Both the position numbers and the translations under genes were made by a program. A stretch of DNA of 64,000 nucleotides from Cyanophora paradoxa CCMP329 (lineage: Eukaryota; Plantae; Glaucophyta), in NCBI GenBank assembly GCA_004431415.1, contig QPMI01000058.1, positions 345,599-409,598 on the forward strand, written 5' to 3'. Below are positions 741 to 23,339 of the stretch, piece by piece (the first letter of the stretch is position 1; every line of letters starts with the position of its first letter). The notes under the pieces were generated by a model. The model saw nothing but the letters and a program-made list of their open reading frames with translations. It was not told the DNA's origin and did no database searches.

Positions 741-744
741 TTAG

Positions 745-1208: not shown

Positions 1209-1286
1209 AGCGTTTAGCTCTATCTAGGCGATAATGATGAGTACATTGAAGCACTTCGTGTCCCAAGAGCGCTCTGGTGCGGCCTC
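1209..1286. repeat. Inner 78-bp remnant of the left TIR of element B
   Basis: Exact reverse complement of 22174-22251. Confidence 0.92.
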
Positions 1287-1434
1287 TGGAGAGAGTAACT
1301 TTTTACATTCACTGTAATTCCTAGCTTGCCATGAGCAGCACCAGTGACATGTTATAAAGGAATAGCACCGCCCTATAGTAACGAGCGGTTGGTTGCGCGC
1401 TTTCTCCGAAAATCTTTTGGAGCGCTATTGTTAA

Positions 1435-4400
1435 ATGGAACGACGGTTTGAGATCGCGCGGCTCAAAGAGCAGATAGCAGGCCAGGCCGAGGTTTTGTAC
1501 AATCGCAGGTTTATTCATGGACAATTTAGAAACAAACTACAGCGCATCAGTGCGAGTGGCTCACGTACGAGACTACCGACACTTCAGAAATACGCATCAC
1601 TTTTGAACGAGCTTTCAACAGTACCAAGACCGCCGAGACCAGTTTCAGCTGCTCGGCTAGAGGTTGCTATTGCTGAGGGTATTGTAGCAGGATTTTCAGA
1701 GCTTCCCGATCCGAGTGTGAGCGAGTTCAGCGAAACTGAAGTTACTGAGGAGGACGGCACAGTGACGACACGTACAGCGCTGAACGGGACATATGCTGAC
1801 TGGGAGTACAGGCCCTCACGTGGAACAGGCCGAGTCACGTCGATGCAGGCACAGATTGAAAATAATGCAAGATTCAGAGCAGGCGCAGTGGCATTTGTAA
1901 GCGTGCAGCAAGAATTAGCGAGTCAGGATCGAATGGGTATAGCTTTACAGGTATCAGGAGTCGGACTCTATCGCAAGCCTAACGAGGACTCAGCGCTTGC
2001 AGTAGTCATTGAGCACAGGAAATTTTACCGCATACTCCCAGGGTCAGACATTGTTGAGGCGATCCGCTCACAGCTGGAGGAGCTAGATACTATTGCGCAG
2101 GAAAAGAGCCGTGATTCTTCCGCCTTCGAGACGTGGATTAAGCTACGCTTTACCGCGATTAGATACTTCAGGCGTATGGGTGGCCGCGGACGCGGGTTTG
2201 TACTTCCGAGCTGGCTTGCACTCAAGCAGGCCTTGATCAATATCAATGCACCAAACAACGAGTGCTTTAAATATGCTGTCCTCGCAGCGCGCAATCCGCT
2301 GGCCCAGGGGTGGATTCGAGACATGCAGGAAGCTATCGGCAGCACGAGGCATCGCTAGATTGTACGATGCTAACGTATCCGACACCACTCGATTCGAAAA
2401 TGTTCAGTAAATTTGAGTGTGCGAATAATGTTAAGCTCTGCGTCTACACGACTGCGCTAGACAAGCAAGACATCGTTCCGATCCACATTAGCGCAGCAAC
2501 GGATGCTATACCGATACTTTACGTGCCAGCAGGCGACGGGAATGATGTGGGACATTATTTGTGGATAAAGAACATATCGCGCCTGTTTGGAAAGCATGGG
2601 TCGAATGCGAAGCACTATTGCTTGGCCTGCCAGTGCGGCTTTGGCTCAGACGAGGCCTTTCAGAATCATCTTAAATACGACCGGTGCCTTGATCGAGATG
2701 AGCACGCCAGGGACGTGCTTCCGAAAAAGGGCGAGCACTTTATAAAATTCAATAGTTTCGAAAAGACGATTCGCCAAAGACTAGTTGGGTATGCTGACTC
2801 GGAAACTATGACTGTACCTGTTTTACAGACCGAGAGTCCAGCAAAGACGAAGCAGCTAGGAGTCCACGCAATAGCGTCGATCGGCTGCTTAGTTATTCTA
2901 AACAAGGGCAAAATCAAGGAACGAATGAAACTGTAGAAAGCGTTGAAAATTCAGAGACGATGCAACAGGAGCAGTTTTGGTTCTCGCATATGGATCACAA
3001 ACTGAGGAGTCTGCAGAAGCATTTGTTGCTTGGCTAGATGAAAAAGAGCCGCAGTTTAAGGGAATCTTGGAGGAGAAAGCGACGATGCAGATTACACAGG
3101 CGCAAGAGCGCTCCTTTCAGGCAGCAGAAACATGCTATATGTGTGGAAGCGAGTTTAAAGAAGTCAAAGATAAAAATCGAGATCACTGCCACGACTCCGG
3201 GCAGTATCTTGGAGCGGCATGCAATGCCTGCAACAGGCGACGAGCAAAAGCTGCCGCCGTGCCAATATTCTTTCACAATGGACGAGGATTTGACTTTCAC
3301 CTATTAGTGAGGGCTTTAGCAGCAGGATATAACCGGCGGAAAGTCGCAGAAAATGCATTCCGAGACGAGGTCGAGCGCAAGTTTCAAGCAAAATACGCAG
3401 GACGTGAGCTGAGTACAGATCATGCAATAAATGCAAAGAAGCGACTTGAGCGTGAATTACGTCCTCGTGAGTTACTGTCGACGAAGTTTGACCAGGTGTT
3501 TCAGAACAGCGAGCGTATGTCACAGTTCACATACGGCATTTACGTTTTCCGTGACTCTGCTCAGCACCTGCAGGGTAGTCTCGATAGCCTTGCGGCTGCA
3601 GTACCTGATGTGAAAAAGAATATCACACGTGCACTACATGAGAGCGAGACACGGTTCAAACTAATGACGCGCAAGGGTGTCTATCCATACAAGTACATTA
3701 CGGGCTGGGATCGTCTTGCAGAGACATCACTACCAGGACGCCGCCAATTTTACAATGAGCTAAAACAGTTGAAGTGCTCTCGTGATGATTATATCCACGC
3801 TCAATCGGTCTGGCGTGAGCTTGGTTGCAGGACAATGGCTGACTATACATTGGAGTACATGAAGACAGACATAGCTCTTCTAGGAGACATATTTGAAAAC
3901 TACCGTGACACGTGTATGGAGACGTATAAGCTGGACCCAAGCTACGTTATGAGCATTCCAGGTTTCTCGTGGCAAGCAGCTTTGAAACACACTGGCCAGC
4001 AACTGGAGCTGTTTCACGAAGGGCAAGAAGATATGCACCGCTTTATTGAGAAAGGGATTCGGGGAGGAATCTCGATGATATCAACACGCTATGCTAGAGC
4101 TAATAATGCCTGGATTGATAAGTACATCGTGGGTCACAGGAAAAAACAGGGCTGGTTACTTTATCTCGATGCGAATAATCTTTATGGACTTTCTATGAAA
4201 CAGAAACTTCCTACAGGGACTTCAAATGGGAGAACATTAGTATTACTACTGATCCTAAACTGTATATCACAGACCTAGATGCAAACGGTCCACGAGGGTT
4301 TGCTTTGGAGGTTGACATGCATTGTCCAGAAGAGATGCATGATTATTTTAGTGATTATCCACTTGCTCCGAGCGTATGTGCATTGTAAAAGAGCACCTAT

Positions 4401-5472
4401 CAGAGGCGCAGCGAAAAACTATTGAGCGTGAAAAACTAAGCGGGATCGAGAGAACGCCAAAGCTGGTTCCAAACCTGTTGCCAAAGAAGAATTATGTTGT
4501 TGATGCACGAGTGCTACAGTTTTATGTGTCGATGGGAATGGTTGTTTCTAGAATACACAGAGTGCTTTCGTTCGAGCAAAGTGCATGGCTAGAGAGCTAT
4601 ATCGATTTGAACACTCTGAAGCGAAAACAGGCAGAATTCCCGTATGAAAAAGATCTTTATAAGCTACTAAATAATGCGGTGTTTGGGAAAACGATGGAAA
4701 ACGTACGCAAGCACTGCAATTCAGAGCTTGTGACAACAGGAGAACGACTAGCGAAAATCAACACAGAGCCGAACCGCTTGAGACAGGTCGCTATCTATGA
4801 CGAAAACTTGGTGTATGTAAATAAGCGAAAGAGCGAATACAAACTCAACAAACCGATCTACTGTGGGTTCACAATCCTTGATCTATCAAAGCTACATATG
4901 TATCGGTTTTACTACCAGGTGCTGAAAGCGCTTTGGGGCGAGCGGCTTAAGCTACTTGGAACAGATACAGACAGTCTCATTATTCAGATTGAGACCGAAA
5001 ATTTATACGAGGACCTTCGCAAAATCAAAAACGAGCTAGATGTTAGTGAATACCCTACGAGTCACCCGTTCTTTGAAGGGATGTCAGAAGACGAAGTGCA
5101 GCGACTAAGATCGATGGGCAAGGTTCCAGGGCTGTTCAAGGACGAGTGTGGCGGCAGACAAATGCTTGAGTGGATCGCGAACCGACCGAAATCGTACTAT
5201 ATGAGCACAGAGGAATCACAAGTGCACAAGTGCAAGGGCGTTAACAAGACGTTCAGCAGCTCGCTGACACGAGAGCGATACTACGACTGCATCTTTGGGG
5301 CATATCATGCAACGTAGATGGAATTCTCGGCTTCAGATCGAAACAGCATCGGATCTGGCTACAGCGGACATCAAAGCAAGCCCTACACCCGCTTGATACC
5401 AAGCGATTCCTGTGCGAGGATGGTGTGAACACCAGGGCGATAGGTCACTATAAAAATCTTTCGAATAACTAA
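1435..5472 (+). CDS. polB: Protein-primed family B DNA polymerase (Polinton type) with endonuclease VII-like insert, split by about 5 frameshifts
   Basis: ORFs 1435..2358, 2310..2936, 2977..4278, 4376..5317 plus a tail to TAA 5470-5472. Motifs: NECFKYAV, GHYLWIKNISRL, YADSET (ExoI), RDHCHDSGQYLGAACNACN, FHNGRGFDFHLL (ExoII), RKGVYPY, RGGIS, YLDANNLYG (A), KLLNNAVFGKTMEN (B), TDTDS (C), KCKGV, DTKR..DG..T.AIGHY. Confidence 0.95.
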
Positions 5473-6401
5473 TGGCACCCTCATTCAAAATCACTGCACC
5501 ACCAGGGGCATATCAAGTCGACATACTTTTCATAGGACGTTTTCGACTATTTGCAGCGATTGAGATTGCAACTCGATTCGCAGTTGTCAGAAAGCTTGAA
5601 GATGCTAAACAGATTCCGAAATTCATCGCTCAGCTGCCTGGGATCTGGGGTTTTTCGGGCGACAACGGCTTTAATACGGCTGCTGTGCGGGCAATGGCCG
5701 AAGAGAATTCATTTTCGATGCACACTGACGTCGCTAAGGATGATCACATATCGAAAGGCGACAAGCTAGGGATCATCGATCGATTCGCACGGACATTGCG
5801 AGCCATGATTCAGGCAGACACAGAGGAACGAGGGTCGCCGAATTTTCTCTCCCGGCTGCCTGCTTTGATCAAGGCATACAATCAAACAAAACACAGCTCT
5901 TTTGGCAGAGAGTATTCACCAGCCTGGATGCGAGATCACCCACAGGTTGCTGCCCAGCTGCACCAGGTGCGTCAACGACAGAACGACATTGAGAGAGACG
6001 CATTGAATCTACCAAAGCCAGGGACTGAGGTGCAGATACTCGAGCCTAAGAGCAGCATCTTTGCGAAGGGAGCTACGAAACCGAGCAAGGAGACGTACAC
6101 AGTCGTGGGGCAGGACAGGAACCGAATAAGGGTCGCAACCAAAGAGGGACAGATATTAAGCCGTAGAATCAAGCCTTCAGAAATTCGAGCCCCGAGACAG
6201 CTTCCGAATCAGTCAAAAATAGAACGAGCTGCGGCTAAGGCAAAGCAAGAGCAACAGCTACGGCGCGAGGGTCTCATTGAAACGAAAAAGTATAGCGGAC
6301 AAAGTCGGCAAGCTCGTGAGCTCAAAAAACTAGAGGTTGCAGGGGAGCCTTCACTGCGATTAGGAAGTAAGGTCGCTGGAAACTATGCCCGCCGCAATTA
6401 G
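5472..6401 (+). CDS. Retroviral-type (rve) integrase of the virus
   Basis: YQVDILF (D1), FSGDNGFN (D2), GIIDRFARTLR (at the usual ERFNRTLK position), YNQTKHSS, SH3-like C-terminal part. Intact 309-aa ORF. Confidence 0.85.
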   Translation: MAPSFKITAPPGAYQVDILFIGRFRLFAAIEIATRFAVVRKLEDAKQIPKFIAQLPGIWGFSGDNGFNTAAVRAMAEENSFSMHTDVAKDDHISKGDKLGIIDRFARTLRAMIQADTEERGSPNFLSRLPALIKAYNQTKHSSFGREYSPAWMRDHPQVAAQLHQVRQRQNDIERDALNLPKPGTEVQILEPKSSIFAKGATKPSKETYTVVGQDRNRIRVATKEGQILSRRIKPSEIRAPRQLPNQSKIERAAAKAKQEQQLRREGLIETKKYSGQSRQARELKKLEVAGEPSLRLGSKVAGNYARRN

Positions 6402-6677
6402 CGACCTAATTTCAGTGCGCCTTCGCTCTCGGTATTTTCGGTCGTTGTCAAGTTTTCGTTCAGGGTGTGCAAGGTTATATTGACGGGAGACAGCAATCTG
6501 CCGCTGCCGGTAATCTGGATTTTCATGGTATCGCTTTCGCTGCAGATCTGCACGTCTTTTGCGTCTCTCTGCAAGTATCTCTGGCGTAACCTCACTACGT
6601 ATGTGCACAGGCTTCTCAAAATTCTTGCGAGGCCTGCCTCGTGGACGGGAAGCAGCCGTGATTTCCGCACTGTCCAT
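6360..6677 (-). CDS. Small basic AT-hook DNA-binding protein
   Basis: RPRGRPRK AT-hook followed by an Arg-rich helix, 105 aa. Confidence 0.6.
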   Translation of the reverse strand: MDSAEITAASRPRGRPRKNFEKPVHIRSEVTPEILAERRKRRADLQRKRYHENPDYRQRQIAVSRQYNLAHPERKLDNDRKYRERRRTEIRSLIAAGIVSSDLTS

Positions 6678-6778
6678 TATGAGTGGGTATGTGATTGATA
6701 TATAGGAAAGAAATTCGAGAAACGTTTATGGCGCGTTCAAATCGAAAAATTAAATCGCAGCGGTTTATATAAAACAAA

Positions 6779-7039
6779 ATGGTCGCAGGAACAATTCGAT
6801 TTGGGAAGTACCGAGGTGAGACTCATTTGAAGGTTGTTTTAACCGATCCGAAATATGCCGAATGGCTAATGTCTTGGGAACATCTTCGTGAGTATGATAA
6901 ACGTGAATTGCAGCGTGCATTTGAGATTTCGCAATTAGAAGATTTGACTTTGCATCAACGACGTCCTACAGTTGAACTACCAGATTTCACAGACGAATTC
7001 GTCTCCCTCCCATCGCATTCTTCAGTTGCGACCCAGTAG
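6779..7039 (+). CDS. Small FGKY-motif protein (DUF3820 / exonuclease X C-terminal-like)
   Basis: IRFGKYRGET....DPKYAEWL. TATATAAAACAAAATG start context. Confidence 0.6.
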   Translation: MVAGTIRFGKYRGETHLKVVLTDPKYAEWLMSWEHLREYDKRELQRAFEISQLEDLTLHQRRPTVELPDFTDEFVSLPSHSSVATQ

Positions 7040-7616
7040 CATTTGGTTCGAAAACATTTGGAGAAGCAGTTTTAACCTCGGCAGAGTCAAGCGATTGCTC
7101 GGCTTTAGCTTTTTCATTTTTCAAATAGCGTAAATCTGGTACGTCCATAGGTCTGTGCTTAAACATCTCGCTTCGCAACATCTCGCGGATCTTAGCTCTT
7201 TCTTGCTTGTCTTTTACATACGATTCGATATTAGCTGATCGAGCCTCGAGATCTCGCAATTTATCTGTTAGTTCCTCGATCTGACTCTTTGATACTGTTG
7301 CTGTCTTGATTTTTGGCCCTGAATAACGTGGTTCAGATGCCATTGCTTGGATAATTCTAGCAGCATCATCATCAATATCGGACTGCATTTCAGTAACAGT
7401 TTTAGCCTGGCTTTGTCGATCGTCAATCGCACTTGCGTTAGCTGCTGCCGACGCAATTGTTTTCGCTACGGGTGCGTTTAGTTTGGGGGTGCTTGCAAGC
7501 TCCCCGCTAGGATTAGCAACAGCTGCGCCTTCAGTCGACCCACTTTCAACTAGTGGTTCAACAACATTAACCTTGCGTCTTTCACGATAACCCTTTTTAG
7601 GAATCCCGCGACCCAT
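6987..7616 (-). CDS. Hypothetical coiled-coil protein with basic N-terminus (possible core protein)
   Basis: 209-aa ORF co-oriented with ATPase and MCP. TAAAATAAGATG start context. Confidence 0.55.
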   Translation of the reverse strand: MGRGIPKKGYRERRKVNVVEPLVESGSTEGAAVANPSGELASTPKLNAPVAKTIASAAANASAIDDRQSQAKTVTEMQSDIDDDAARIIQAMASEPRYSGPKIKTATVSKSQIEELTDKLRDLEARSANIESYVKDKQERAKIREMLRSEMFKHRPMDVPDLRYLKNEKAKAEQSLDSAEVKTASPNVFEPNATGSQLKNAMGGRRIRL

Positions 7617-7625
7617 CTTATTTTA

Positions 7626-8366
7626 TTAAGATAATATTTTAAAACGCCTTTTTTTAGAGATAACAGGTAATTCTTTTTTAGACTCTTCTTCTTGTTTTAG
7701 CCATTTAGAGAAACGAAAACTCTTATCTTCGACGGCTTTATCAACGTACCAGGCAGTATCATATTTAGTTCCATCCAAAACTAAGCACTGATAATCGTGC
7801 GCCCAAGTCTCGAACAAGGCGATGAACTTATCCTTTGGTAGGTGTGAAAAGTCTCGATAAATTGCCTCCAGTTCAGTATGATTAGAGTAACTGAAGAAAA
7901 AACAATAGTCGGAGTTCGATCTTATAGATTGACTCAATGCTGTAAGCTTTTGCGACATTAAAATCGTAGAAATGCAAAAATGGCGGCACTGCATAAAAAG
8001 TCGATTAACAACCTTGCTGTTTCGAAGATCAACAGTTTCAGATGCAGCAACAAGATCGTCCAATACAAGTAATATCTGCGGCGCTTTCTTTTTGTTTTCG
8101 ATTAGAGCGCGCTGTGAATCAATGATTTCTGCAACAATGGCAGGTTGAAAATCATCGTAAAGCTCTTTTGTTATTGCTTCGTATTCACCATTGAATTTGG
8201 TGGCCGTAAACACAACCACTCGATTAATCTTTGGATATAGCAGTCGAAGCAGATGCTTTGTGCAATAGAACGATTTGCCACTATTAGATTTCGATATAAA
8301 CAGGGCTTTAAAAGGGACCCTCATATCGCTAGGCTGGAACTTTGCGAGCTCTTGAGACCCATCCAT
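7626..8366 (-). CDS. A32-like (FtsK/HerA superfamily) genome packaging ATPase
   Basis: Walker A-like SKSNSGKS, Walker B LLVLDD, CRH motif, ILMSQ..L...IRSN. Confidence 0.92.
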   Translation of the reverse strand: MDGSQELAKFQPSDMRVPFKALFISKSNSGKSFYCTKHLLRLLYPKINRVVVFTATKFNGEYEAITKELYDDFQPAIVAEIIDSQRALIENKKKAPQILLVLDDLVAASETVDLRNSKVVNRLFMQCRHFCISTILMSQKLTALSQSIRSNSDYCFFFSYSNHTELEAIYRDFSHLPKDKFIALFETWAHDYQCLVLDGTKYDTAWYVDKAVEDKSFRFSKWLKQEEESKKELPVISKKRRFKILS

Positions 8367-8386
8367 CAAAAAGATAGTCGGTGAAA

Positions 8387-9774
8387 TTAGAGGTTCACCT
8401 TACGAAGACCCGCAGCATCAACAATTAGTACAGTGTGAAGGAGAGCTCGAACCTGGACGTAAATCTTGTTGTTTGCATCGTATGCAGCAGGGTTCATAAT
8501 ATTCAGGAAGCAGCTGCTGGAGTTCGTCAGATCTACGAAACCAGTTTGAGCAGCATTTCGAATCGATTTATCCCCACTAATGCAAAATGGCAAACCAGTC
8601 AGAACATACCGATTAAGAGGCGCGTCTAGATTGGAGCACTTGAAGACATCAGCGATGAGTTCGGCACCTTGCAGGAGAGGAACGGGCTCATTTGAATAAA
8701 GTCTCTGGCCATTCAATTCGCAGGAAATAGTAATATCGCGAGCATTAGCCTCGGTTTTGAGGACACTGTGTTTTCCATCAGTTTGGTTCATGTTTGGCTG
8801 CTTGCGAATGCTAACGAACAGGCCGTAGCAAAGTCCACTGATTTGAGACAGATTAATCCGGGTGGGCGCTCCCGCACCAGCATAAGTAATTGAATCAGCA
8901 TCAACCCAGCCGACATCGGTAGCGGGAATTGCGATTCCAGACGTTTTGACTTTCTCAATCACCTGGGCAAAAGTGGCCTCATCAACGTTGATGCAATGAG
9001 CAATAATCTTTGGATTCGAAAGCTCCGGATTGGCAGGGGTGACACTGAGAACATTGGGAGTTATATTCTGGCCGATGTTTGCAGGGGATGCAGCAGCAGC
9101 TCCCACGCTCCCAAGTCCATCTTCTTTAGAAGCATCACCGCCTATGGCATATTCTGTTACAAACCTACCACCATAGCTGGTTTCGACGAAGCCCTGGGCA
9201 CGATCACGGAACCAAACCTCGACGGAAACCTCGCCAGATAGAGCACCAATCGGAAGCACAGAACCCTCCCAGGGACAGGGGATTTTTACACTGAAAATAC
9301 CTCCAGTGCGATTGCTCCCCTGAGGTGGTGTTCCATGGAGCCAGCCACCGGATCGGTACTTCTTTTTAAGCTGAGCATCATCATTGTAAATCAGTGCGCT
9401 GTGAACAAGCCAGTCCTCGGGACAATGTAGCTGTAGGAAGCATATTTGATTTCGATTCGCTTTACGAGAGCACCAACCGATCGCAAATAACCAGTGCGAA
9501 CCAGGTCAGTGTCACCAGTAAATGCTGTCAGCTCGGGAAGGGTAAACTGGAGTTCGAGTCCCTGAAGGAAATTGTATCGGGGCAGGAAATAAGTAACCCT
9601 CTTTCCGAAGCAGTCTCCATAGTCATTGCTTGGGTTGACAACAACACGAACAGGCTTGGTTTGGCTCGTTAGACCTAACATAAGCTCGTTGTTCATGAAG
9701 AAGTCCTTCGCTTCCTGAGGTGTGGTGAGGAGCTCTTTGAGGCCGAGCCGCTGCAAATTCTGAGTAACATCCAT
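8387..9774 (-). CDS. Major capsid protein, double jelly-roll (frameshifted near 9260-9430)
   Basis: N-terminal FGKRVTYFLPRYNFLQGLELQFTLPEL resembles the NCLDV/PLV MCP start. Beta-rich ~460 aa, LPIGAL..V.VEV.F and G.VDL.N segments, adjacent to the ATPase. Confidence 0.75.
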
Positions 9775-10806: not shown

Positions 10807-11723
10807 ATGGTCGAAGACAAGCATCGACGCTGCGCCAGGCTCAGCTTTGACAGTAGAGACAGAAGGCCAATCGATTCAGAGGCAAACTTTGTGCTAGAAA
10901 TAAATGAACCTATAATCAATCCAGTTGCTGTTCGACTTACCCAGTGTGAGTTCGCAAACAGCCTTTACACGAGCATTAGAGATGAGTATCTTTCGATCAC
11001 CTTCCCCAACATTTGGACGGAAAATCTGGCAGTTTTTGAGCCTGGTATAATTACTACTGCAAATATGGGCGAAACAGATCTTTACAACTTTGGCCTATCG
11101 TTTAAGTTTGAACTGGGGGAATCGTAATAGCATATTTCAAATTGTTTCGGGACCCAGAGACACTGAAGATGTCTGCCTATTGCAACCGTTCCTGCACAGT
11201 AACCTGCCAGTTCAAAGCTCTATCGAATCTGCTAGGGCTGAACCGAAATGAGCCCCTCCAGCTGTCTCCTATCGTGTTTGAAGGAGGACAAAGATCAGTA
11301 ACTGCAGCTGAGCGATATCTCGAGGTTGCTGGCATTCCAGTAACACCTTCACACCCTGAATATGGCGTGGATTTCACCGAAAGAATGCGGAGTGAGCCAC
11401 TTGGTTATGCTGTCGAATTTCCAAAGATAATTGACATGAACAGCGACCAGTATCTATTCCTAGTCTGTGAAGAGCTTCGACCATTTGCTTCAAAGCTTCG
11501 CCGTGGGGCCAAAACAATGTGCAACTACGGGCTTGCTCGAATTCAAATGAGTCAGGACGTTGGCAAATTCGTTTATATAAATCAGGATCATCAAAGCGAA
11601 TGGATCCCCATCGAAGAGCGTCTTGTGCTGACTTCCTTGCGACTGCGCATTGTAGACAGAGATGGTGATGATGTATTACTGAATGGATTGCCATGGTCTG
11701 GGGAGCTCCAGTTCATCACTTAG
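10807..11723 (+). CDS. Minor capsid (penton)-like protein 2, one frameshift near 11120
   Basis: N-term FDSRDR...ANF.LEI...I.NPVAVRL...EFANS, central YLFL..EEL, C-term LTSLRLRIVDRDG....LNGLPWSGELQF. Confidence 0.78.
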
Positions 11724-12206: not shown

Positions 12207-13680
12207 TGTAACGTCCCCGGAAATCAAGCCGGAATGCATTCACATTTATAAATTCGTTTGTTATAATTTGCACATAGTTATATACCTGTGGGGTGATCAA
12301 ATGCGAGTCACTATGCATTAGATCGAAGCCTGCCATTGTTGGGTTCGCAGCAAGCACATTTGCTAGGACCGTATTTTCAAAAAGCCTCCCATCTTGGACA
12401 TATCCTAAGTTGGTCAGAATGCTGAAATTAAATAGGACTCCGGCAGCAAAAGCTGGCCCATACATAATGATTTGATGTAGCTCAAAAGGCTTTGTAAATT
12501 CGACTCTGATCCAGGGATTAGGTAGAGTGCCACCTTGGAACCCTGTTGAGTTGGGTCGCACATGAGAAGGTGGGTGCAATTCCTCAAAGTCGTTGCTTAT
12601 GATGTTTGCATCTGGAATTATAAACCAGTTGACATCAAATGGCGGCTCAACTGTTAAAGTTGACGATATGATTAGTCTGTCATCGTTCAGTAGGTCATAG
12701 TTCGCCAATAGAAAGCTGCAGAGCGCATTTATTTTAGCATTTATTTCGATTTGTTTCAGCCATAAATCTGTTGTAGAAATCAAATAAGAAATATTCGATG
12801 GGGAGGCATCATCAAGCTTGCTCATGACTGCAGCTGGCAGAGGAACACTTAAACGCCAGTATCTAGTTAGATTCCTATCTGCATCAACTGGAAGCAGTTC
12901 CTGCATTTGAAAGTGCGATTCCAGCTCGCTACCAGCCATTAGCATAGAAATGATTGGGCTGCCTGAGAGGGATAGGATCCAGCCCAGTGCGCCCCAGCCT
13001 GACGTCTCCGAATTCGAAAAGCCTGCAGTCAATTGCTCACTGGCTTGGACTTCACCACAGCTAATGCTCACAAGAACAATTGGATCTTCTGCATCGTAAA
13101 TTTTACTGGCGTGGCTGAGTGCAGCAACTGAGGGATTATTCAAACAGGCAATTGCCCGTCAACAAGGTTTTTGTCCCTAGAACCTTCGGTGGAAAGAATG
13201 TAGGTGCTGCTGAAGATGCTCTCACTGCATCACGAATCAGCGTGCTTGAATATGGCCCATCCTTCGTAAAAACTACTGGCTGCATCCGAACTGTATCAAA
13301 CGCTGTAATTAATACGTCTTTTGTCGATTCTGCAATTGTGTAGTCCAGGGCAACGTCTGTAAGCACCGACTCCAGAGGATTTGCATCATAGCGGCTTCCT
13401 GAGAGCAAGCTTGTGAGTGATCTCGGATTTGCAAATATTGTTGGCAGGTTCGTTTGATATAGACTCAAGATATCACCTGCAGAATATCGGTAAGCAAGAA
13501 CAGAGCCTGGAGCTGATGGGATCGCCAATCCGGCCGCTATTATTGCCCTGTTGAGGTGCCTGCAAAGAAATCAAACAGCTGTGGTATTGCTTTCCCAGTA
13601 ATCGCCTCAATCCGTTGTAGAATTCGGGCTATGACTATTCCACGAGCACCTCCACCTGATAGTGAGAGAATGACCTTCAT
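12199..13680 (-). CDS. Patatin-like phospholipase with C-terminal beta-sandwich-like extension (frameshifted)
   Basis: ILSLSGGGARG oxyanion motif, FDFFAGTSTG (GxSxG), ASSAAPTFFP, VDG...NNP across the frameshift at ~13150. C-terminal PNPWIRVEF...FRLDFRG. Confidence 0.88.
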
Positions 13681-13703: not shown

Positions 13704-16700
13704 ATGTCCTACATCTTGAAGAAGCCAGTGCCACTTCGTAGATCTCCAGATTTCGTTGATGATCGACTCATAAATATTCGCGTATTTGGAAGCATCTTGG
13801 CAGACTTCAATGCTGATCGTGACATCCACAGGACCGAGTTTAGTCGACCAGCTGCATTAATTCTGCGGAACTCTCACGTTGGTGCCCCAGATATTGCACA
13901 GAGATTCTGTCTTGGTCCCACTGAGAACTTTGTTGCTGAAATTATTGGGTCCAGGGCGTTGCCACGACACCTGCGAATTGCCTCCTCAGGCACAGTCTCC
14001 AAGTATGATTCTGGTAGATTGATATTTAGGCTCCAAAATGATAGAGGGGTCCATACATCAGCTCTACGTCTAATTGATGAATCAAATGATGTCGCAAACA
14101 AAACTGCGGCTCAAATCACTGGGCGAATTCTCCTTGGCGAAGATGCTGCAATATCAGTGCTTGCATCACAAATTCAGCCGTTCCCCTGGGATCTACTATA
14201 TACCGATGCACGAGAAGCAAATCTTCTTTCGGGTTTGATGTAAATCAAATCGATACCGAGCCAGCCACCAGGTTCGATATTCCTGGATGCACCTTCGGCT
14301 CTATCTTGATTGAGGCTGACAGGCACCTGCTCCGGCATTGCATGATAGATATGACCTAGGGCTTCGCACCAGGCAGTGGAGAAATATTCATGGAACTAAT
14401 ATTTATCAGGATGGTAAGAAGGTTAGCACTGAAGAGCAGGTTATCAACATTTTCAACTACTACTTCGGACCTATTGTCCCTATACCACCTCTTCCAGGGT
14501 TACCAAAGCCGCCAATCCCGGATGGACCTGGTCGAGAGCGAGTTGCTGATGAGACAGTTCCTTTCGGTCAACATATTGTCAGTTGGGAGCAAGTTCGCAA
14601 TAAACCTATCTTCGAACCGAAAAAACAAATAGATGAACAGTATTTACCTCCTGAAATCGATATATTAGAGCTTGATGATTACCAATTTGTCCCAGATGAG
14701 GAAGAGTTTTTACCTGACGGTTTCGACCCGCAAGAGTATGAGTATGATCAATACGACCCAAATGAGGAAGAGTATTTACCCGATGGTTTAGATCCACAAG
14801 AGTTTGAGTATGAACAGAATTATGAACCCCATGAGGAATATTTAGCAGATGGTCTCGAACCACCAGTTGTGGATTATGAGCAACCTTATGAACCCCATGA
14901 GGAGTTTTTACCAGATGGATTACAACCGGAGCTTTTTGAGTTCTTTCCAGATTGGGAACAGATCAACAACAAACCAGCGAGATATCCACCAGAGGATCAC
15001 AACCATGATTGGGATGAGATCTTGGGTAAACCTGAGAAATATCCACCTGAAGATCACAGGCATGATTGGGCGATATCGATGGAATTCCACCTGAGTTTCC
15101 GCCAGAAGACCATTTACATATTTGGAGCGAAATACGAGAGCAGCCCACTTTTGCATCAGCAGGAAATGTATTATTAGGAGATATTAACAATGGTGTGAGT
15201 CTCTACCAAAATATAAACACACCAGAAAGATTACAATTAAACGATTATTATGTGAATCGTCAGGGAATCGATGCAGGCACCACAATGGACGGTGAATTGT
15301 ATATTAGACCACCCACAAGGGATGTAATATTACCACTTGGTGGTGGAATTGAAATTAAAAATACAAAACCAGGAATCTACTTAACAAACTACTACCCGAT
15401 GATGTCCCGATGACAGCAGGATTTATTTCTCTACCATCTGATCCAGCAAACTATGATAACAAAGATGCAACAATACAAATTAATGTGACTAATGTAAGCG
15501 ATTTAGACGGATCAAGACCAAAATTAATATTTAGCCGTGAGCAACTCGCAGCAGAAACACTTTTAGGAGATCGCGATGATTATAAACAATGTGAGGTAGC
15601 ATGGATTAAAACAAATTATAATGGTGGAGTTCCTGAGGGTCTTTTAGAAATCAATCAGAGAGCCTCAGCGAAAAACATTCATAACGAAAATATTTCAAGA
15701 GTCGTAACAGAAGATTATTTTAGATGGGATAATATCCCTGACGCACCCGAAAAATTCCCACCCTCAGACCATGAACATGTTAAAGCAGATATTACGGATT
15801 TTGCACATACTCATGTCAAAGCCGATATTACAGATTTTGCCCACACTCACACAAAAGATCAAATAACAGATTTCGCACATGAACACGTCAAAGCCGATAT
15901 TACGGATTTCGCACATGAACACGTCAAAGCGGATATTACAGATTTCGCCCATACTCACACAAAAGCAGATATCTCAGACTTTGCCCATACTCATCTAAAA
16001 GCAGATATTACAGACTTTGCACATGCTCACACAAAAGCAGATATCACAGATTTTGCACACACCCACCTTAAAGCAGATATTACAGACTTTGCACATACTC
16101 ACCTAAAAGCAGATATTACAGATTTTGCACATACCCACACAAAAGTGGATATCTCAGATTTTGCACATAGGCACAATTGGGACGAAATAGACGAACAGCC
16201 AGTATTCGCACAATTGAATGCAATCGGAAACGTTTTTAATGGAGTCACACTTTACCAATCGATTAATACACCTGAAAGGCTATTTTTGAATGATCATTAT
16301 GTTAGTCTCAATGGGTCGTTTACAGGTCAAGACGGCACACCGATGGTGGGAACTCTTGCAGTAAGATTACCCAGGGATCCAATCGTAAATGGAGTGTATA
16401 GTGGTGATTTTAATGTAGGAGTAAATGATACTTTCCCCAGTATCTATGTCACGAATTATCACCCGGGTGAAACAGGACAAGTAGCGGATTTTTCAGCAGC
16501 GATACAAGTAAATGTAACAGATCAAAGTGCATATGATGGAGCAAGACCTAAGATAGTATTCACAAGGAGAAAGTTGTAAACTATCTTCCTGTTGCAGGAC
16601 AACCCACAGATGATCACGGAAAATGTGAGATGGCGTGGATTAAGACAACATCAGGAGGCGCCTTAGAAGTCAATCAGAGAATGGCGGCAAAAAACTTACA

Positions 16701-19695
16701 CAATACCACCCTTTCCGGTGTTGTTACAGATGATTACCTTACCAATAAAGGATATCTCACGTCGGCGGATTTAAGCAGTTATGCAACCGATGCAGAATTA
16801 GCGGCGGCACTTGCGAATTATCTACCTCTTACAGGTGGAACCGTCACCGGAACCGTTAACGCTACCACATTACAAATTGGTGGAACCACAATACCGAAAG
16901 GTTATGAATTTGACCAATTAGATGTGGTTTCGACAGATAGAAGCGCAAATAATTGGACTGTTAATTGGACAGGTCATAGAACGGGACTAACCGGATGTTA
17001 TACGACACCTGAGAATGACGCAGATGTTACGGGTTGTTGGATGCGTTGGACAATTCCAGAAGGTATGAAATCGTTTTATATTCAACTTTTACTGTGGCAT
17101 AATTGTCGATATTTCGATATTTACGGGCAAACTGTAAATGGACATCAACATTTCCTAAGACGAATAAATAACTATCAAGGACTTCAGGATGTTGCAGTTC
17201 AAGATGGAACATACCCAGCTATAATATTTACTTCAGTAAACTGCGAATTTTACAGTAAAATATATGTTCAAGGGCGAAAAGGTCGCATTTATTTTACGGG
17301 TGTGTTTGGTTGGAGTCGTCAGAGAGCAACCGATAATGATGTAGGATTAGTGCATTATGATAATATCGCTTTTAATCCTGTTGGCAAATATTCCGATTTT
17401 GATGTAGTGACCGCTTGGAATGATGCAAGTATAGCTATGGTCGGAAGTTGGCAAACCAATTGGAAACCTACAACAGATAACCCAGTAGCAGGATTTTATA
17501 GCAATCAAGAAGGTGACACAAGCGGTAGTGACTATGTGCAAGCAGCAGTGCCGGCAGGAATGAAAACATGTCACATTCAGTATTTATGTTGGACGAATGG
17601 GCGATATTTCGATATTCAGGGATACCGCAACAGTCGATGGAATCATATTATGAGAGTGAATACTTACCAGAATGTAATAAACACAGCCGATACATTATGG
17701 CATGACGGTTTATTATGGACTTCTGTATTTTGTGGGAATTTTACACATATTAGAGTTGTTGCAAGAAAAGGGCGTTGTTATGTTGGATATTTTGCATGGA
17801 CGAAAGAAGTAGGAAGAACAGCACCAGCGAATGGTATGATTAGTTGGGATAATGTTTATAGCAAACCGTCATTTTATTCAGCCGCAGACCTTCCAGGAAC
17901 AGCAACATGGATTACAAACACTTGGTTAAAATCAACAGATAACATAGAGCGAATATGGTTTGGAAATGGTAATACGACATATATTCGAGGTTATGGAAAT
18001 AGTGATGGGGTTTCAATTGAATTCAGAAACTCAGCAGATGGAGCAATTTTAAAATCTTATAACAATGGAAACCTTTGGGTAAACAACACTTTGACAGTTC
18101 CGACAATAAGCGCTACCACCATTGGTGCAACAACAATAGATGTTGCAACATTAAAAAGAAATGGTTATGACGTTCCGAAATGTTACGGTTTTGATGACGC
18201 CGTAGCAGGTGCCGCTTATCATTCATCGGGCGGAACTTGGACAGTTGGTTATGGGACACCTTGGGATCCAGGATATAATTATGGTAGTTATGTGTATAAC
18301 AGTGAAGCCGATGATACAGCTTCTACAACTACATGGATTCAATATACAATACCCACAGCAATGGTTAATGGGACAGCATTCCTTACACATTTACCATGGA
18401 ATTCTTGCCGTTACTTTGAAATTTGGGGAGTCCGTAGTAATGGAGCAACTGTATTTATTACGAGAGTTAATAACTATCACCCTTATAATAGCGATTCCGA
18501 CGGTCACCACAACGGGTTAAATAATGTCCCTATTTTCCTTGCGGGTCGATTTACTCACATCCGTATTTATCCGAGAGTTGGAAGAGTTCATATTATGGGT
18601 ATTGGTTTCACACATGATCGTGCACATAGTAGTTCATATGGTGGTCACACCGGTTACATTTCTTGGGATAACATTTATAGTAAGCCAAATCTACTTACAC
18701 CGAGTTTAGTTGGAAACATTACAGGTTTTGATACTTGGAGTGGAACAGGTAGTGGTGGTCTATCATTTAGCGGATCTTGGGTATCAGGTTGGACGGCTAC
18801 TAATGATAATCCTGTGGACGGATTTTATAGCAGTATTGAAGGAGAAACGACGAGTAGTGATTGGGCGCAAATCGAAAAACCAGCAAATATGAAAACATGT
18901 CACGTTCAATACTTGTGTTGGACGAATTGCAGATATTTCGACATTGGAGGTTATCGATCGGGTCGATGGTTCCACATTATGCGTGTAAACACTTACCAGG
19001 CTATCTCAAATTATGGAACCTCTGATTATCACGATGGGTTGGCGTGGGCTTCCTTTGCTTGTGATAACTTTTCACATGTTAGATTTGTTGCAAGAAAAGG
19101 GAGATGTCACATTGGTATGGTTGGATGGACGAAAGAAAAAGGAAGAACAGCACCAGCAAATGGTATGATCAGTTGGGATAATGTTTATAGTAAAGATGCT
19201 CGCACCACATGGGCTACCGGAACTTGGATAACATCAGATGAAGGTAATGGGAGAGTTTATTTCGGTTCATCATCGACTACATACATTAAAGGTTACGGTT
19301 ACGAAATGATCCATTTTAGAAATGCAGTTGATATAACAATGCAAGCTTTTTATAATGATGGTAACGCTTACTTTTGGGGATGGCTTACACAAGGAAGTGA
19401 TAGAAGATACAAAACCGACATTAAAAATATAACCGGCGCCCTTTCAGCAATCGAGAAATTACAGGGTGTGAGTTATAAAAAGATTGGTGATGAAAAACAA
19501 AAAGTTAATTTAGGTCTGATTGCGCAAGATGTCGAAAAAGTCATACCAGAAGTAGTAGGTAAAAATCATGAAAATTATTTAACCCTTGCATACACGGGTT
19601 TAATTCCAGTTCTCATAGAAGCCGTTAAAGAATTATCCCAGAAATGCAAGAGTTTACAAGATCAAATAGACCAATGGCGCAGTCAGGCTGCTTAA
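13704..19695 (+). CDS. Large modular fibre/spike protein (one frameshifted gene of ~2000 aa, or 2-3 genes) ending in a peptidase S74-type intramolecular chaperone
   Basis: Consecutive ORFs 13704, 14338, 15066, 15410, 16630. HxH repeats, YLPLTGGTVTG fibre motif, four repeated Trp/Tyr-rich beta modules, GSDRRYKTDI...LGLIAQDVEKVIPEVV...Y.GLIP.LIEAVKEL from ~19396. Confidence 0.8.
14698..14945 (+). repeat. Four ~66-bp coding repeats (acidic EE[FY]LPDG.DPQE.EY motif)
   Basis: Visible in ORF 14338..15177. Confidence 0.8.
15770..16165 (+). repeat. 11 x 36-bp coding tandem repeat, HxHxKADITDFA (phage tail repeat-like)
   Basis: Eleven contiguous in-frame units with synonymous variation. Confidence 0.93.
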
Positions 19696-19726
19696 CTGCC
19701 CTAATAAAAATGTCACAGTATAATAA

Positions 19727-20035
19727 ATGGCGACGTATCCACTTGGTGGAACTCCTTCTACTTCTTCTGAGCCTGTCGCTCTTGCTTTCGATACTATCAA
19801 ACTTGTAGCCGCACTACAAACTGTCGAAAAAACAATACAACAAACTAACAAACTGTCACCGGTTGTTCATGAATATAAAAACCTCTTGGTTAATGTCCTT
19901 GCGCAATCGGCTTATGGTGATCCTGTTGCTAAATACTCTGAGTGCGATAGCAATATCAAAGCAATGACAGCCAATATTCAAGCTCTTTCTGTTGCTTACC
20001 AAGCCCTTGGAGCTAATCTAATCACTTTGGCTTGA
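19727..20035 (+). CDS. Small helical hypothetical protein
   Basis: 102-aa ORF, TATAATAAATG start. Confidence 0.55.
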   Translation: MATYPLGGTPSTSSEPVALAFDTIKLVAALQTVEKTIQQTNKLSPVVHEYKNLLVNVLAQSAYGDPVAKYSECDSNIKAMTANIQALSVAYQALGANLITLA

Positions 20036-20091
20036 TGGTAGTTTGGCTTGTCTGCCGACTTTTTTTTCTTTCCTTCTTAGTAAAATAAGCA

Positions 20092-20945
20092 ATGGGCGAA
20101 TATAATCGGGTTCAGTTACCTATCTATTCACTTGGATCCCCTGCAAATCATTTTCGCCAACACGAAGTCAATGATGAGGTTCGCGGTCTGGAATCCACTG
20201 AACGACCTAATTCGAATGGTAACTCTTTTGACAAAAACTCAATGATTCGAGTAAAAGAACTCCGAGCCGATAAGAATTCGGGTGTAGTTAAAACCACTCG
20301 ACTACTCGTAAGCAATGCAAATTTCTTCCAGCCAATAAATGGAGGCCCTGATGCTTACAGTGTTGATCTGAAAGCCCTCGATTTCGACAAGAATTCTGCT
20401 GCTGCTACAATTCGTTCAGGTGGAGCATTTATTGGTGGTGGTTGCAGAGTTTCAGGTCAACTCTCTTCTTCGATTGCATACAATGATGTCCCGGATTCCT
20501 TGAACAAAATGTTGAAAATCCACAACGAATTCGGTTCTATACACCTGTTGCACAGCAACCTTTTCTTCACTTCTATGTTGCATCATCTGTCTCTCTTGAA
20601 AATTCAGAGTTGGTTTCCATTACAGGAACTGATCGTGTGAGAAGGAATATTCCTCTTCCCACAGCAATGCTTTCGATGTGCAGAGCAAACAACAATCAAC
20701 CAGGTCACAATTACCTATTCTTTGTTCAAGCATCAAATCATTTCGGTCGGGGATATTGTGTATATAACAATTTGACATTTACTTATGATTTGTTTGTCAC
20801 TGAGGTAGGAGTTTACAATACTATGATAATGGGACTGAGAACAGATATAGCAGCTGTTTCGGCACTTCGTGGTGTGAATGTTGCTGATATCTTTACAACC
20901 GGATTTTACCAGGAGCCAGATGTAATCGATGATCCTACTCCGTAA
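20092..20945 (+). CDS. Hypothetical structural/fibre-associated protein, paralog 1 (frameshifted near 20540-20620)
   Basis: Shares GLESTE, ELR.DKN.G.VKTT.LLV.NANF and GGA.IG.G.RV.G with 20969..21793. Confidence 0.65.
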
Positions 20946-20968
20946 AATATATATCACTTTAATGTAAA

Positions 20969-21793
20969 ATGGCTGAAATTGAACGCATCCTAACAGCACA
21001 GCTTTCGCTCGCGGCCCCCGCTACGCACGTTTTACAACATTCTACTTTTGACGATGTGGAAGGTCTTGAATCAACAGAGGTTCAGCCGACATTAAACACC
21101 TTCGGATCTACACATAAACTTCGATTGCAGGAACTCAGATGTGATAAAAATAATGGTATAGTTAAGACAACGAAACTTCTTGTCACAAATGCAAATTTTA
21201 GCTCACATTATGGAGATCCAGACAGCTACGGCGATCCTATTTCGACTTATTCTTTTGAATCTCGTTCTGGAGCTATTAACTGTCGAAATGGCGGCGCATA
21301 TATTGGTGATGGTCTTCGTGTTGGCGGAGCTATTGGAGCTCCTCTCTTCGTAAACGACACGCCAAACCCGATCGACAATCTGACGCGGATTCGGACGTAT
21401 GTCCCCGGTATGAATGCACCATATATTATAAAGATCTTTCCAATTGTTGTTAATGAGCAAACATCAGTAGTTGATTCTCTGGTTGAAATTGGTGATCATT
21501 ATAAGGTAATTGTTGATATCCCTCCGGATATTTATGCACTCTGTCAAGTAGAAGGTGGAACCCCGAATATTTCGGTTGTAATCACACCCTATGACAATTT
21601 CGGGATCGCGTATCATGGTGTAAATTTCGGATTAGAAGATTATCAGTTTTTAGTAAGAGCTACCAGGTTTGGTATCTACAAATGCATCCTTTATGCTGAA
21701 AGAACCGATGCTATTGCTAAACAGAACACATATGCAGAATATGTTGGTACAAACAGGTATTTTCCTATATTCGGCAGCGATACGGCTCCATAG
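20969..21793 (+). CDS. Hypothetical structural/fibre-associated protein, paralog 2
   Basis: Intact 274-aa ORF, GTAAAATG start, paralogy as above. Confidence 0.7.
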   Translation: MAEIERILTAQLSLAAPATHVLQHSTFDDVEGLESTEVQPTLNTFGSTHKLRLQELRCDKNNGIVKTTKLLVTNANFSSHYGDPDSYGDPISTYSFESRSGAINCRNGGAYIGDGLRVGGAIGAPLFVNDTPNPIDNLTRIRTYVPGMNAPYIIKIFPIVVNEQTSVVDSLVEIGDHYKVIVDIPPDIYALCQVEGGTPNISVVITPYDNFGIAYHGVNFGLEDYQFLVRATRFGIYKCILYAERTDAIAKQNTYAEYVGTNRYFPIFGSDTAP

Positions 21794-21831
21794 CCGCATT
21801 CCTTTGTTTTTTTATATTTTTCCATTAATAG

Positions 21832-22167
21832 ATGGATTTGCTTCGAAAATGTATGGATATGTTCCATCTCAACGTCACCAGCAAATTGAATTGTAGTTGC
21901 TGCGAGACGACCATTAACCTCGAAATATCAGACACAGAAGGCTCTCGCACCCCAGAAACTCAGGTTTCGCCTATTAACACACCCAGGACTTCTAGGTCCA
22001 ATTCTCCATTTACTCGAACTGATTCACCTGTACCTTGGCTTGATGCTGAAGGCCGAAGATTGTCTTGGCCTCCCCCAAATATCCCGAAGCCGCTGAAAAG
22101 AAAAAAGTCCTTGCTATCAAGTTTCCGAAAGGAGAAGACTCCAGTTTCGGAAAAGCAGCCAGATTAA
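21832..22167 (+). CDS. Terminal small Ser/Thr/Pro-rich protein with basic NLS-like tail
   Basis: 111-aa ORF ending 6 bp before the TIR. Many SP/TP sites, KPLKRKK. Confidence 0.55.
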   Translation: MDLLRKCMDMFHLNVTSKLNCSCCETTINLEISDTEGSRTPETQVSPINTPRTSRSNSPFTRTDSPVPWLDAEGRRLSWPPPNIPKPLKRKKSLLSSFRKEKTPVSEKQPD

Positions 22168-22173
22168 GTGGAT

Positions 22174-23339
22174 GAGGCCGCACCAGAGCGCTCTTGGGAC
22201 ACGAAGTGCTTCAATGTACTCATCATTATCGCCTAGATAGAGCTAAACGCTTTTCCTCTGGTTGCTTCAATGTTCTCATCATTTCGCCTAAAATTAACCT
22301 AAACGTGCTTCCTCTGTTAGCTTCATCGTACTCATCTATATCGCCTAGACTATTCTGATCCGTTTCTCTGCAGACCGCGCTCATGGGGGCAGCGCTCCTC
22401 TTCGTCTATTCTTCTTCACAGCACTGTCCTAAATAGACATGAGCTATTGCTAGGCTCTGACCTAGGGAATCGGATTGTAGACGTTGCTGGATCGGTGGGG
22501 TAGACGTATATGGTGAAATTACTAATGAAACGCTGGAGGTATACACTTGAAACGCATGGAATCGGCGGCTATGGAGCGAAGCGAAATTGCCCGGGTGTGA
22601 GGTCCATGCGTATACAACAATCGACACATCTCCAGAGGCCACAGCAGACCGCTCCCGTCCTTACGTGCGGCTATAGCTTAACGCTTTTTCCTCGTTTAGC
22701 TTCTCTGTACACATCAATTACATCTAGCTAGAGCTTAACACGTTTCCTCGTTTAGCTTCTCTGTACTCATTAATATCGTCTAGACTATTCTGATCCGTTT
22801 CTCTGCAGACCGCGCTCATAGGGGGCAGCGCTCCTCTGCGTCTCTTCTTTTTGTCAGCTCTGCCCTGAATAGTCGTTAGATATTGCTAGGCTCTGACCTA
22901 GGGAATCGGATAGTAGACGTTGCTGGATCGGTGGGGTAGACGTATATGGTGAAATTACTAATGAATCGCTGGAGGTATACACTTGAAACGCATGGAATCG
23001 TCGGCTATGGAGCGAAGCGAAATTGCCCGGGTGTGAGGTCCATGCGTATACAACAATCGACACATCTCCAGAGGCCACAGCAGACCGCTCTGGGGGCAGC
23101 GCTCCTCTTCGCCTATTCTTGTTGTCTCCTCTGCCTTGTATAGTCGTCAGATATTGCTAGGCTTCGACCTAGGGAATCGGATAGTAGACGTAACAAGAGA
23201 GCGGGGTAGACGTAACGAGAGAGCGGGGTTGGAGTGATAGCGGGGTGGACGCTAGGGCTGGTGCAGCGAGAGAGGTGGTGATGGGATGGGGGTGGCGGAG
23301 AGGGGTGGGCCACCGCGGTGGGCTCTCTCTCGTTTTTTT
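22174..23339. repeat. Right terminal inverted repeat of element B (~1.17 kb) with iterons and an internal ~310-bp direct duplication
   Basis: First 78 bp are inverted relative to 1209-1286. 22346-22654 is repeated at 22781-23090. Ends in CCACCGCGGTGG palindrome, CTCTCTCTCG, T7. The full extent as a TIR is inferred. Confidence 0.75.

What the first reader, a model, noticed from the sequence alone, without database searches (positions are those of the whole stretch)
1209..23339. Candidate new lineage of endogenous Polinton-like virus with a phage-like attachment/entry module
Seen: a Maverick-type pPolB+rve module joined to an MCP with an NCLDV/PLV-like N-terminus, two pentons, a patatin lipase, about 8 kb of fibre-like genes and long iteron TIRs. 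Established: canonical Mavericks carry pPolB, INT, ATPase, MCP, one mCP and an adenain-like protease, while PLVs swap modules freely. Inference: this gene combination may define an undescribed group of recently active proviruses, possibly giant-virus-dependent.
Basis: partly seen in the sequence, partly recalled or inferred. Interest (0 to 1): 0.85.

Follow-up and report, generated by a model that had tools for sequence, protein, structure and literature searches.

The report
Glaucophyte alga's integrated Polinton-like virus
This is a 22-kb DNA virus integrated in what is likely the alga Cyanophora; its capsid family and fibre-plus-lipase gene kit were already catalogued but apparently never named, and TATA boxes hard against its start codons suggest it would be switched on by a giant virus.

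Summary
The element is real: Maverick-type pPolB, A32 ATPase, double-jelly-roll MCP, patatin and a ~2,000-codon S74 fibre are shown; the rve integrase and two pentons rest on motifs or weak hits. The MCP is 60-75% identical to a Cyanophora paradoxa protein that is itself an MCP seed in Bellas 2023 (366 hits in that genome). Bulzu 2025 tallied 156 glaucophyte elements with pPolB, rve, S74, lipase and no protease, and described patatin-discoidin fusions and phage-type fibres as common PLV parts. So the 'entry module' and gene mix are known; the capsid lineage is catalogued but, in what I could read, unnamed and unplaced, with no close relatives outside this host. Corrections: only 78 bp of the left inverted repeat is present, cut by the end of a second related element; the frameshifts look like long-read deletion errors (16 of 18 junctions are -1). 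New here: TATAWA lies 0-21 nt before 9 of 16 start codons and divergent genes share 23-27-nt spacers, a giant-virus-type promoter layout. Helper dependence is about even odds. The scan earlier noted nested, replicase-swapping sibling PLVs on other pieces of this genome.

The parts
1..1208 (+). Right end of a second, related element (not part of the finding): last ORF 174-740, one iteron unit, purine-rich tail and terminal CTMTCTCR+T7 motif; it abuts the left TIR remnant
   Evidence: 206 of 283 aligned letters match unit 1 of the right TIR; same terminal motif as 23325-23339
1209..1286 (+). Inner 78 bp of the left terminal inverted repeat
   Evidence: 100% complementary to 22174-22251
1435..5472 (+). 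[quoted passage not shown]
   Evidence: (1,508 hits at E<=1e-20; best 120 are 39-48% identical); domain scheme from PMC11161782 passages
5472..6401 (+). Likely rve-type integrase, 309 aa, intact ORF; third acidic residue is D
   Evidence: motifs (recalled reading); IS481 E 0.025; no Pfam rve hit
6360..6677 (-). Small basic protein with AT-hook
   Evidence: Pfam AT_hook E 0.0043
6779..7039 (+). Small protein with ExoX-like C-terminal motif
   Evidence: Pfam E 0.00063, below cut-off
6987..7616 (-). 209-aa protein of no known family, no Cys
7626..8366 (-). A32-like packaging ATPase, intact ORF
   Evidence: Pfam Pox_A32 1.8e-8; no close database relative
8387..9774 (-). [quoted passage not shown]
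   Evidence: 75% and 60% identical to P0001; folds of P0001
9826..10779 (-). Likely minor capsid protein (penton) 1, three frame breaks
   Evidence: recalled terminal motifs; no family hit; chain of pieces inferred from frames
10807..11723 (+). Likely minor capsid protein (penton) 2, one frame break
   Evidence: Atlas 0.98 to unnamed viral clusters, 0.90 to Sputnik V18/19 cluster; recognition value low, a lead
11875..12174 (+). Small basic protein of no known family
12199..13680 (-). Patatin-like phospholipase, ~494 codons, two break regions; C-terminal ~140 aa likely a discoidin-type sugar-binding domain
   Evidence: Pfam Patatin 1.5e-8, NCBIfam CBASS_lipase 3.2e-13 below cut-off, motifs; C-domain has no hit, reading from recalled motif and Bulzu passage
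13704..19695 (+). Likely one giant fibre gene (~1,997 codons, five frame breaks): acidic repeats, 11 twelve-residue PTR-type repeats, repeated beta-rich domains, C-terminal Peptidase_S74 chaperone
   Evidence: S74 1.1e-16; 25 PHROG families shown, mostly tail
19727..20035 (+). 102-aa protein of no known family
20092..21793 (+). Two paralogous ~275-aa genes (20092-20945 with one break; 20969-21793), 42% identical over the first 143 aa; possible short spikes
   Evidence: no informative family hit
21832..22167 (+). 111-aa ORF next to the TIR
22174..23339 (.). Right terminal repeat, ~1.17 kb: two ~435-bp units plus a partial third, each with 56-bp iterons; ends CTCTCTCG+T7
23339..26421 (+). Host flank: right part of a multicopy rve transposon, cut inside its first ORF; an uninterrupted copy lies at 33825-37227
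   Evidence: 99.6% identity to 34141-36806

Best explanation
A Polinton-like provirus, likely of the glaucophyte Cyanophora paradoxa, belonging to a multicopy capsid family already catalogued in that alga, which likely lies silent until a co-infecting giant virus transcribes it. Shown: gene set, capsid fold, kinship to the catalogued MCP, many related copies, insertion in a host transposon. Inferred from related systems: pPolB copies a linear genome from its ends with its own terminal protein, freed by the vOTU domain; the integrase inserts the ends into host DNA; MCP, two pentons and A32 ATPase build and fill an icosahedral particle without a maturation protease; the S74-folded trimeric fibre binds the next cell and the patatin breaches a membrane, so entry would be independent of the helper. 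Inferred from promoter layout: a giant-virus RNA polymerase starts at TATA boxes beside the start codons. This copy was likely hit in its left end by a second element.
For: MCP 75%/60% identical to P0001; P0001 is a named C. paradoxa EukProt protein whose length and first 400 printed residues match a Bellas 2023 Table S2 seed. Fold: NCLDV MCPs Z 24.1-17.7, Sputnik 14.2, mavirus 13.1. pPolB motifs and colinearity. 20 DNA runs of one organism hold 65-69% of sampled words; 2,107-4,203 contigs per DNA run lay on 1-19900. Breaks: 16 of 18 junctions are -1, two are +1/-2; the 12 shown of 43 indel rows are all extra letters in short-read contigs, 11 of 12 beside a run of the same letter, and the same kind of row occurs in host flank. 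TATAWA in the last 30 nt before 9 of 16 ATGs (dinucleotide-shuffle mean 2.1, 0 of 1,000; 0 of 54 internal ATGs); spacers of 27 and 23 nt between divergent ATGs. ASFV late promoters need TATATA at -1 to +5, whereas a Pol II TATA box lies 25-30 bp before the start site (PMC5294985 passages). C. paradoxa methylates and silences viral genes and holds giant-virus insertions (10.1101/2025.04.15.648976 passages).
Against: The TATAWA pattern was chosen after seeing k-mer counts; TATA boxes are also host promoter elements, and the host's 5' UTR lengths are unknown to me. No helper virus of this host is at hand to compare; the mavirus TCTA motif is not enriched (2 of 16). At least one PLV replicates alone. 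The MCP model has mean pLDDT 58 from 5 sequences, and the libraries hold few PLV capsids, so 'NCLDV-like' is relative. Integrase and penton 1 lack profile support. The pieces of the fibre and penton 1 chains were chosen by me from the ORF list. The host of the window is inferred from its closest relative, not given.
Confidence: 0.55

Rival explanations
1. The same virus family, but autonomous: it is transcribed by host RNA polymerase II and replicates in the nucleus without a helper, like Tetraselmis virus TSV-N1 or animal Mavericks.
For: It encodes its own polymerase, packaging, attachment and membrane-entry proteins; TATA boxes are canonical host elements; a lytic nuclear PLV is on record.
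Against: TATA-to-ATG gaps of 0-21 nt and 23-27-nt bidirectional spacers leave little room for Pol II geometry; most characterised PLVs need a giant virus; fibres also occur in helper-dependent Gezel-14T.
Confidence: 0.3
2. The family now spreads mainly as an intragenomic self-synthesising transposon and no longer makes infectious particles; this copy in particular is immobilised because its left end is split.
For: Left TIR is cut at 1208/1209; no relatives in viral or metagenome contigs by the scans tried (short exact patterns, low sensitivity).
Against: Capsid, fibre and lipase frames are open apart from error-like single-base shifts; 97% of 1435-22167 is coding; distant environmental MCP relatives exist (P0004-P0008).
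Confidence: 0.12
3. The left junction is not a nested insertion but a recombination or assembly join between two related terminal repeats, so the 22-kb unit as seen is partly chimeric.
For: Both sides carry related iterons; no short-read contig shown bridges 1208/1209 (one search lists only part of its pieces).
Against: The neighbour ends exactly at the same terminal motif as the element's own right end and the join has no shared letters; in three runs a contig joins the neighbour's terminus to an iteron array at 798-799 (tables 5 and 5c).
Confidence: 0.2

Closest known systems
Glaucophyte (Cyanophora paradoxa) PLVs catalogued in Bellas et al. 2023 (PMC10120064, Tables S2, S4) and Bulzu et al. 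2025 (PMC12220804, Table S6)
   Same: MCP 60-75% identical to a listed seed; group tallies of 156 elements: A32 139, pPolB 49, rve 85, S74 37, lipases 89, protease 0 in nine columns, tyrosine recombinase 0, SLATT 0, Tlr6F 0; patatin-discoidin fusions and PTR repeats reported
   Different: Tallies are per group, so I did not see this exact gene order, two pentons, end structure or promoter layout described; 66 of 156 carry an AdoMet decarboxylase domain, not detected here; only 2 of 156 were hit by their polinton MCP profile
Group 1 Mavericks/Polintons (Polintoviricetes; Alpha adintoviruses)
   Same: TP-vOTU-Exo(EndoVII)-palm pPolB 39-48% identical to such enzymes (Rhizophagus, Nematostella among named hits), adjacent integrase, A32 ATPase, terminal repeats
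   Different: No adenain/vUlp1 protease detected; MCP search returns no named Maverick MCP; patatin rather than PLA2; large phage-type fibre
NCLDV-related PLVs (Zora/VC102, VC134, VC218, Zephyr, Alpensee) and Mriyaviricetes (10.64898/2026.06.19.733378; PMC11253617)
   Same: Capsid fold closest to NCLDV MCPs; PLV size; rve and pPolB or lipase occur in some of these groups
   Different: Has a DNA polymerase and ~23 kb, unlike mriyaviruses; no HUH or VLTF3 detected; profile assignment could not be run
EMALE virophages of Cafeteria (PMC8547959) and Gezel-14T / Tetraselmis PLVs
   Same: Low-GC integrated element, long TIRs, pPolB+rve (mavirus), fibres (Gezel), helper-matched promoters as a model
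   Different: MCP is not virophage-type; no protease; no TCTA enrichment; helper dependence untested

Membership tests
Catalogued Cyanophora MCP clusters (Bellas 2023) | MCP at least 25% identical over 30% length to a cluster member | tested here: met
   75% over 125 aa and 60% over 346 columns to P0001, which matches a Table S2 seed; which of the two clusters (272 or 94 hits) was not determined
PLV in the broad sense (Bellas and Sommaruga 2026) | Double jelly-roll MCP | tested here: met
   Sibling P0001 model vs PBCV-1 MCP: Foldseek E 7.5e-16; Z 24.1, rmsd 3.8, 349 aligned
PLV in the broad sense (Bellas and Sommaruga 2026) | A32-like packaging ATPase | tested here: met
   Pfam Pox_A32 34.6 bits, cut-off 22.8
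PLV in the broad sense (Bellas and Sommaruga 2026) | Minor capsid protein | tested here: inconclusive
   Atlas lead for penton 2; no profile hit for either
Polintoviricetes group 1 (Maverick/Polinton) | pPolB with TP-vOTU-Exo-palm | tested here: met
   the TP part itself has no profile hit
Polintoviricetes group 1 (Maverick/Polinton) | rve integrase | tested here: inconclusive
   motifs and IS481 E 0.025 only
Polintoviricetes group 1 (Maverick/Polinton) | vUlp1/adenain cysteine protease gene | tested here: not met
   no such Pfam hit in 35 ORF pieces; 97% of the span is assigned and four unassigned ORFs lack Cys; a very divergent protease in 20092-21793 is not excluded
Polintoviricetes group 1 (Maverick/Polinton) | MCP of the Maverick-Polinton clade | tested here: not met
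   phmmer of P0001 over 1.84 billion representatives gave 6 hits, none named as Maverick; no Pfam hit
Polintoviricetes group 1 (Maverick/Polinton) | TIRs flanked by a 5-6-bp target-site duplication | tested here: inconclusive
   only 78 bp of the left TIR lies in the window; left flank absent
Aquintoviricetes / NCLDV-related PLV groups | Best hit among the published MCP group profiles; ATPase tree position | not testable with these tools
   profiles are in preprint supplements that are closed; ATPase had no database relative to build a tree
Mriyaviricetes | 35-45-kb genome lacking a DNA polymerase | tested here: not met
   about 22-23 kb with pPolB; definition from PMC11253617 abstract
Mriyaviricetes | HUH endonuclease, VLTF2/3, Mriya48 | tested here: inconclusive
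   no such Pfam hits; no dedicated profiles available
Virophaviricetes | Virophage-type MCP and maturation protease | tested here: not met
   no Pfam hit for P0001; Z 14.2/13.1 to Sputnik/mavirus vs 24.1 to PBCV-1; no protease hit
Virophage lifestyle (works like) | Promoters shared with, and replication dependent on, a giant virus | tested here: inconclusive
   TATAWA enrichment and ultra-short spacers; no helper genome to compare

The most novel reading that the evidence does not exclude
The glaucophyte elements form their own deep branch of NCLDV-like small viruses that pairs a giant-virus-type capsid and two pentons with a Maverick polymerase, and are read by an asfarvirus-like helper polymerase from TATA initiators at the start codons: an inducible virophage-type defence in the glaucophytes, whose promoter predicts the kind of giant virus that infects them.
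Probability: 0.25. Interest if true: 0.6.

Novelty: new member of a known kind. Interest (0 to 1): 0.3.

Why it matters
As a gene inventory it matters little: each module and the capsid family are in print. It would matter if the promoter reading holds, because a cultured model alga carrying hundreds of these elements (366 MCP hits) and giant-virus insertions would offer a direct test of PLV reactivation in glaucophytes, and because placing this isolated MCP/ATPase lineage bears on how PLV-sized viruses connect to Nucleocytoviricota.

Tried and rejected
No whole genome was held, so copies, gene order in sisters and the far side of the neighbour were not examined. Related-locus scans found nothing: viral contigs with ATPase, pPolB, MCP alignment, integrase, P0008 and fibre, metagenome contigs with P0008 and the MCP alignment; these use short exact patterns and do not show absence. 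ATPase: 0 of 470 candidates at E<=1e-5, so no tree. Single-sequence fold of P0001 failed (pLDDT 34). P0003 among the MCP hits is a repeat protein, taken as spurious. PDB sequence searches for patatin C-part, integrase and fibre middle gave nothing useful; phage and plasmid tblastn none; integrase vs host transposon integrase not significant. Expression: no RNA holder listed; two guessed-RNA contig sets barely cover the element (X21 2 of 30 bins; X24 zero depth in the five bins 19600-22919): not used as evidence. Summed contig depth is about 3-5 times higher over 7300-17200 than over 1300-6600, which would fit one capsid module paired with several replicases, but the tool warns that depth is no copy number. 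CpG o/e 0.81-1.04 across modules shows no clear methylation decay. TCTA promoter motif rejected. Decay as the cause of frameshifts judged unlikely, though it cannot be excluded for single sites since contigs come from many copies. Mriyavirus, virophage and canonical Maverick membership rejected as listed.
Full report
What is there. The stretch 1209-23339 is a 44% GC island beside 66% GC host DNA, 97% coding between 1435 and 22167. Left to right: pPolB, integrase, two small genes, a 209-aa unknown, A32 ATPase, MCP, two divergent penton-like genes, a small gene, patatin, a giant fibre, four further ORFs and a ~1.17-kb terminal repeat. The pPolB palm piece has 1,508 relatives at E<=1e-20 among 4,435 candidates; the 120 listed are 39-48% identical and include Rhizophagus and Nematostella records. 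Its pieces line up in order along single full-length homologues and keep vOTU Cys and His, EndoVII, Exo I-III and Pol A-C motifs (motif names recalled, vOTU scheme from PMC11161782 passages). The integrase is supported by motifs and a weak IS481 hit only. Patatin passes Pfam's cut-off and keeps its nucleophile motif. The fibre ends in an S74 chaperone and carries 11 PTR-type repeats.

Capsid and host. The MCP has one close database relative, P0001, a C. paradoxa protein; an exhaustive search with it gave 6 hits: itself, a 38% Logan protein, three 27-30% ENA proteins and one repeat protein. A five-sequence model (pLDDT 58) is a double jelly roll closest to PBCV-1 and faustovirus MCPs (Z 24.1, 24.0), above Sputnik and mavirus (14.2, 13.1); the Atlas also points to Capsid_N/Capsid_NCLDV clusters, families carried by 11-18% of members. 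Twenty DNA runs of one organism hold two thirds of the words. The host is therefore likely Cyanophora (inferred).

Ends. Only 78 bp of the left TIR is present, identical to the inner end of the right one; 0 of 78 mismatches bounds divergence below about 4%, modest support for a young insertion. Bases 741-1208 are the right end of a related element with kindred iterons and the same terminal CTMTCTCR+T7 motif. The simplest reading is that it inserted into this element's left TIR; the rest would lie outside the window. A terminal homopolymer suits sliding-back priming by protein-primed polymerases (recalled from phi29 and PRD1). The right end interrupts a host rve transposon with an uninterrupted twin at 34141.

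Breaks. Of 18 junctions between gene pieces, 16 are -1 and two +1/-2 (binomial P 0.0007; chains for fibre and penton 1 are my inference). All 12 shown of 43 indel rows in short-read contigs are extra letters, 11 beside a run of that letter, and host flank shows the same. This fits long-read deletion errors; Bellas 2023 section 7 reports such artefacts. Contigs pool many copies, so single sites are not proven.

Promoters. TATAWA occurs in the 30 nt before 9 of 16 start codons, ending 0-21 nt from the ATG (shuffle mean 2.1, 0 of 1,000; 0 of 54 internal ATGs; pattern chosen). Penton 1/penton 2 and patatin/fibre start codons are 27 and 23 nt apart (the latter spacer holds one of the indel rows). 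A review gives the Pol II TATA box at -25 to -30 and ASFV late TATATA at -1 to +5 of the start site (PMC5294985 passages). Virophage activation is thought to rest on helper-matched promoters (PMC8547959 passages; 10.1101/2025.10.09.676808 one passage). C. paradoxa silences viral genes by methylation and holds giant-virus insertions (10.1101/2025.04.15.648976 passages). Together these make helper dependence slightly more likely than autonomy.

What is known. Bellas 2023 (passages, sections 7 and 9, supplement rows) lists P0001's sequence as an MCP seed and 366 hits in two clusters for C. paradoxa, without mention in the main text. Bulzu 2025 (passages, outline, section 7, Table S6) tallies 156 glaucophyte elements and has a section on phage-like fibres: S74 across PLVs of most eukaryotic groups, discoidin alone or fused to patatin mainly in rhizarian and glaucophyte PLVs, a role in entry proposed. 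Starrett 2021 (passages, section 10) noted adintovirus-like proteins in C. paradoxa. Bellas and Sommaruga 2026 (parts 1-4 of 5) report two pentons in some Trimcap B members and frequent replicase switches; Barth 2026 (parts 1-3 of 5) report pPolB-DDE coupling across capsid types. A preprint reports Mriyaviricetes-related regions in a glaucophyte assembly (passages, section 10); whether these are this family is unknown. Five searches found no paper devoted to glaucophyte PLVs or naming this lineage; subscription papers and preprint supplements were not visible and may place it.

Verdict. A real, probably young provirus and a new member of a known kind. The attachment/entry module is not new; the unplaced capsid lineage and the promoter layout are the open points. 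Interest 0.3.

Noticed in passing
window 741-1208 and tables 5/5c: In three runs a contig joins the neighbour's terminus (1202-1204) to the start of an iteron array (798-799), as the window joins it to an iteron at 1209: element ends may land preferentially in iteron arrays of sister TIRs.
   Followed up: partly
window 174-740: Last ORF of the neighbouring element (188 aa stop to stop) has no family hit and no similarity to the 19 ORF pieces of the main element compared.
   Followed up: partly
window 1300-6600 vs 7300-17200: Summed short-read contig depth is several-fold lower over the pPolB-integrase block than over the capsid block, hinting that sisters pair this capsid with other replicases.
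   Followed up: partly
window 11762 (run X7, table 5c): A contig joins the region just after penton 2 to TIR sequence at 1268, suggesting shorter or rearranged sister elements.
   Followed up: no
window 23339-26421 and 33825-37227: Multicopy host transposon with an rve-like ORF (weak Pfam rve); two copies 10.8 kb apart, 99.6% identical, one cut by the provirus.
   Followed up: partly
window 13139-13570: The patatin piece scores best to the CBASS cGAMP-activated phospholipase model (E 3.2e-13, far below cut-off); an antiviral cell-death role instead of entry is not excluded.
   Followed up: no
window 51400-54300, 55750-57700, 59400-60950: Three GC-rich host tandem arrays with ~120-, ~135-150- and ~171/467-bp units.
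   Followed up: no
window 50361-51053 and 61260-62168: ORFs in lower-GC host patches with no useful Pfam hit; possibly transposon remnants.
   Followed up: partly
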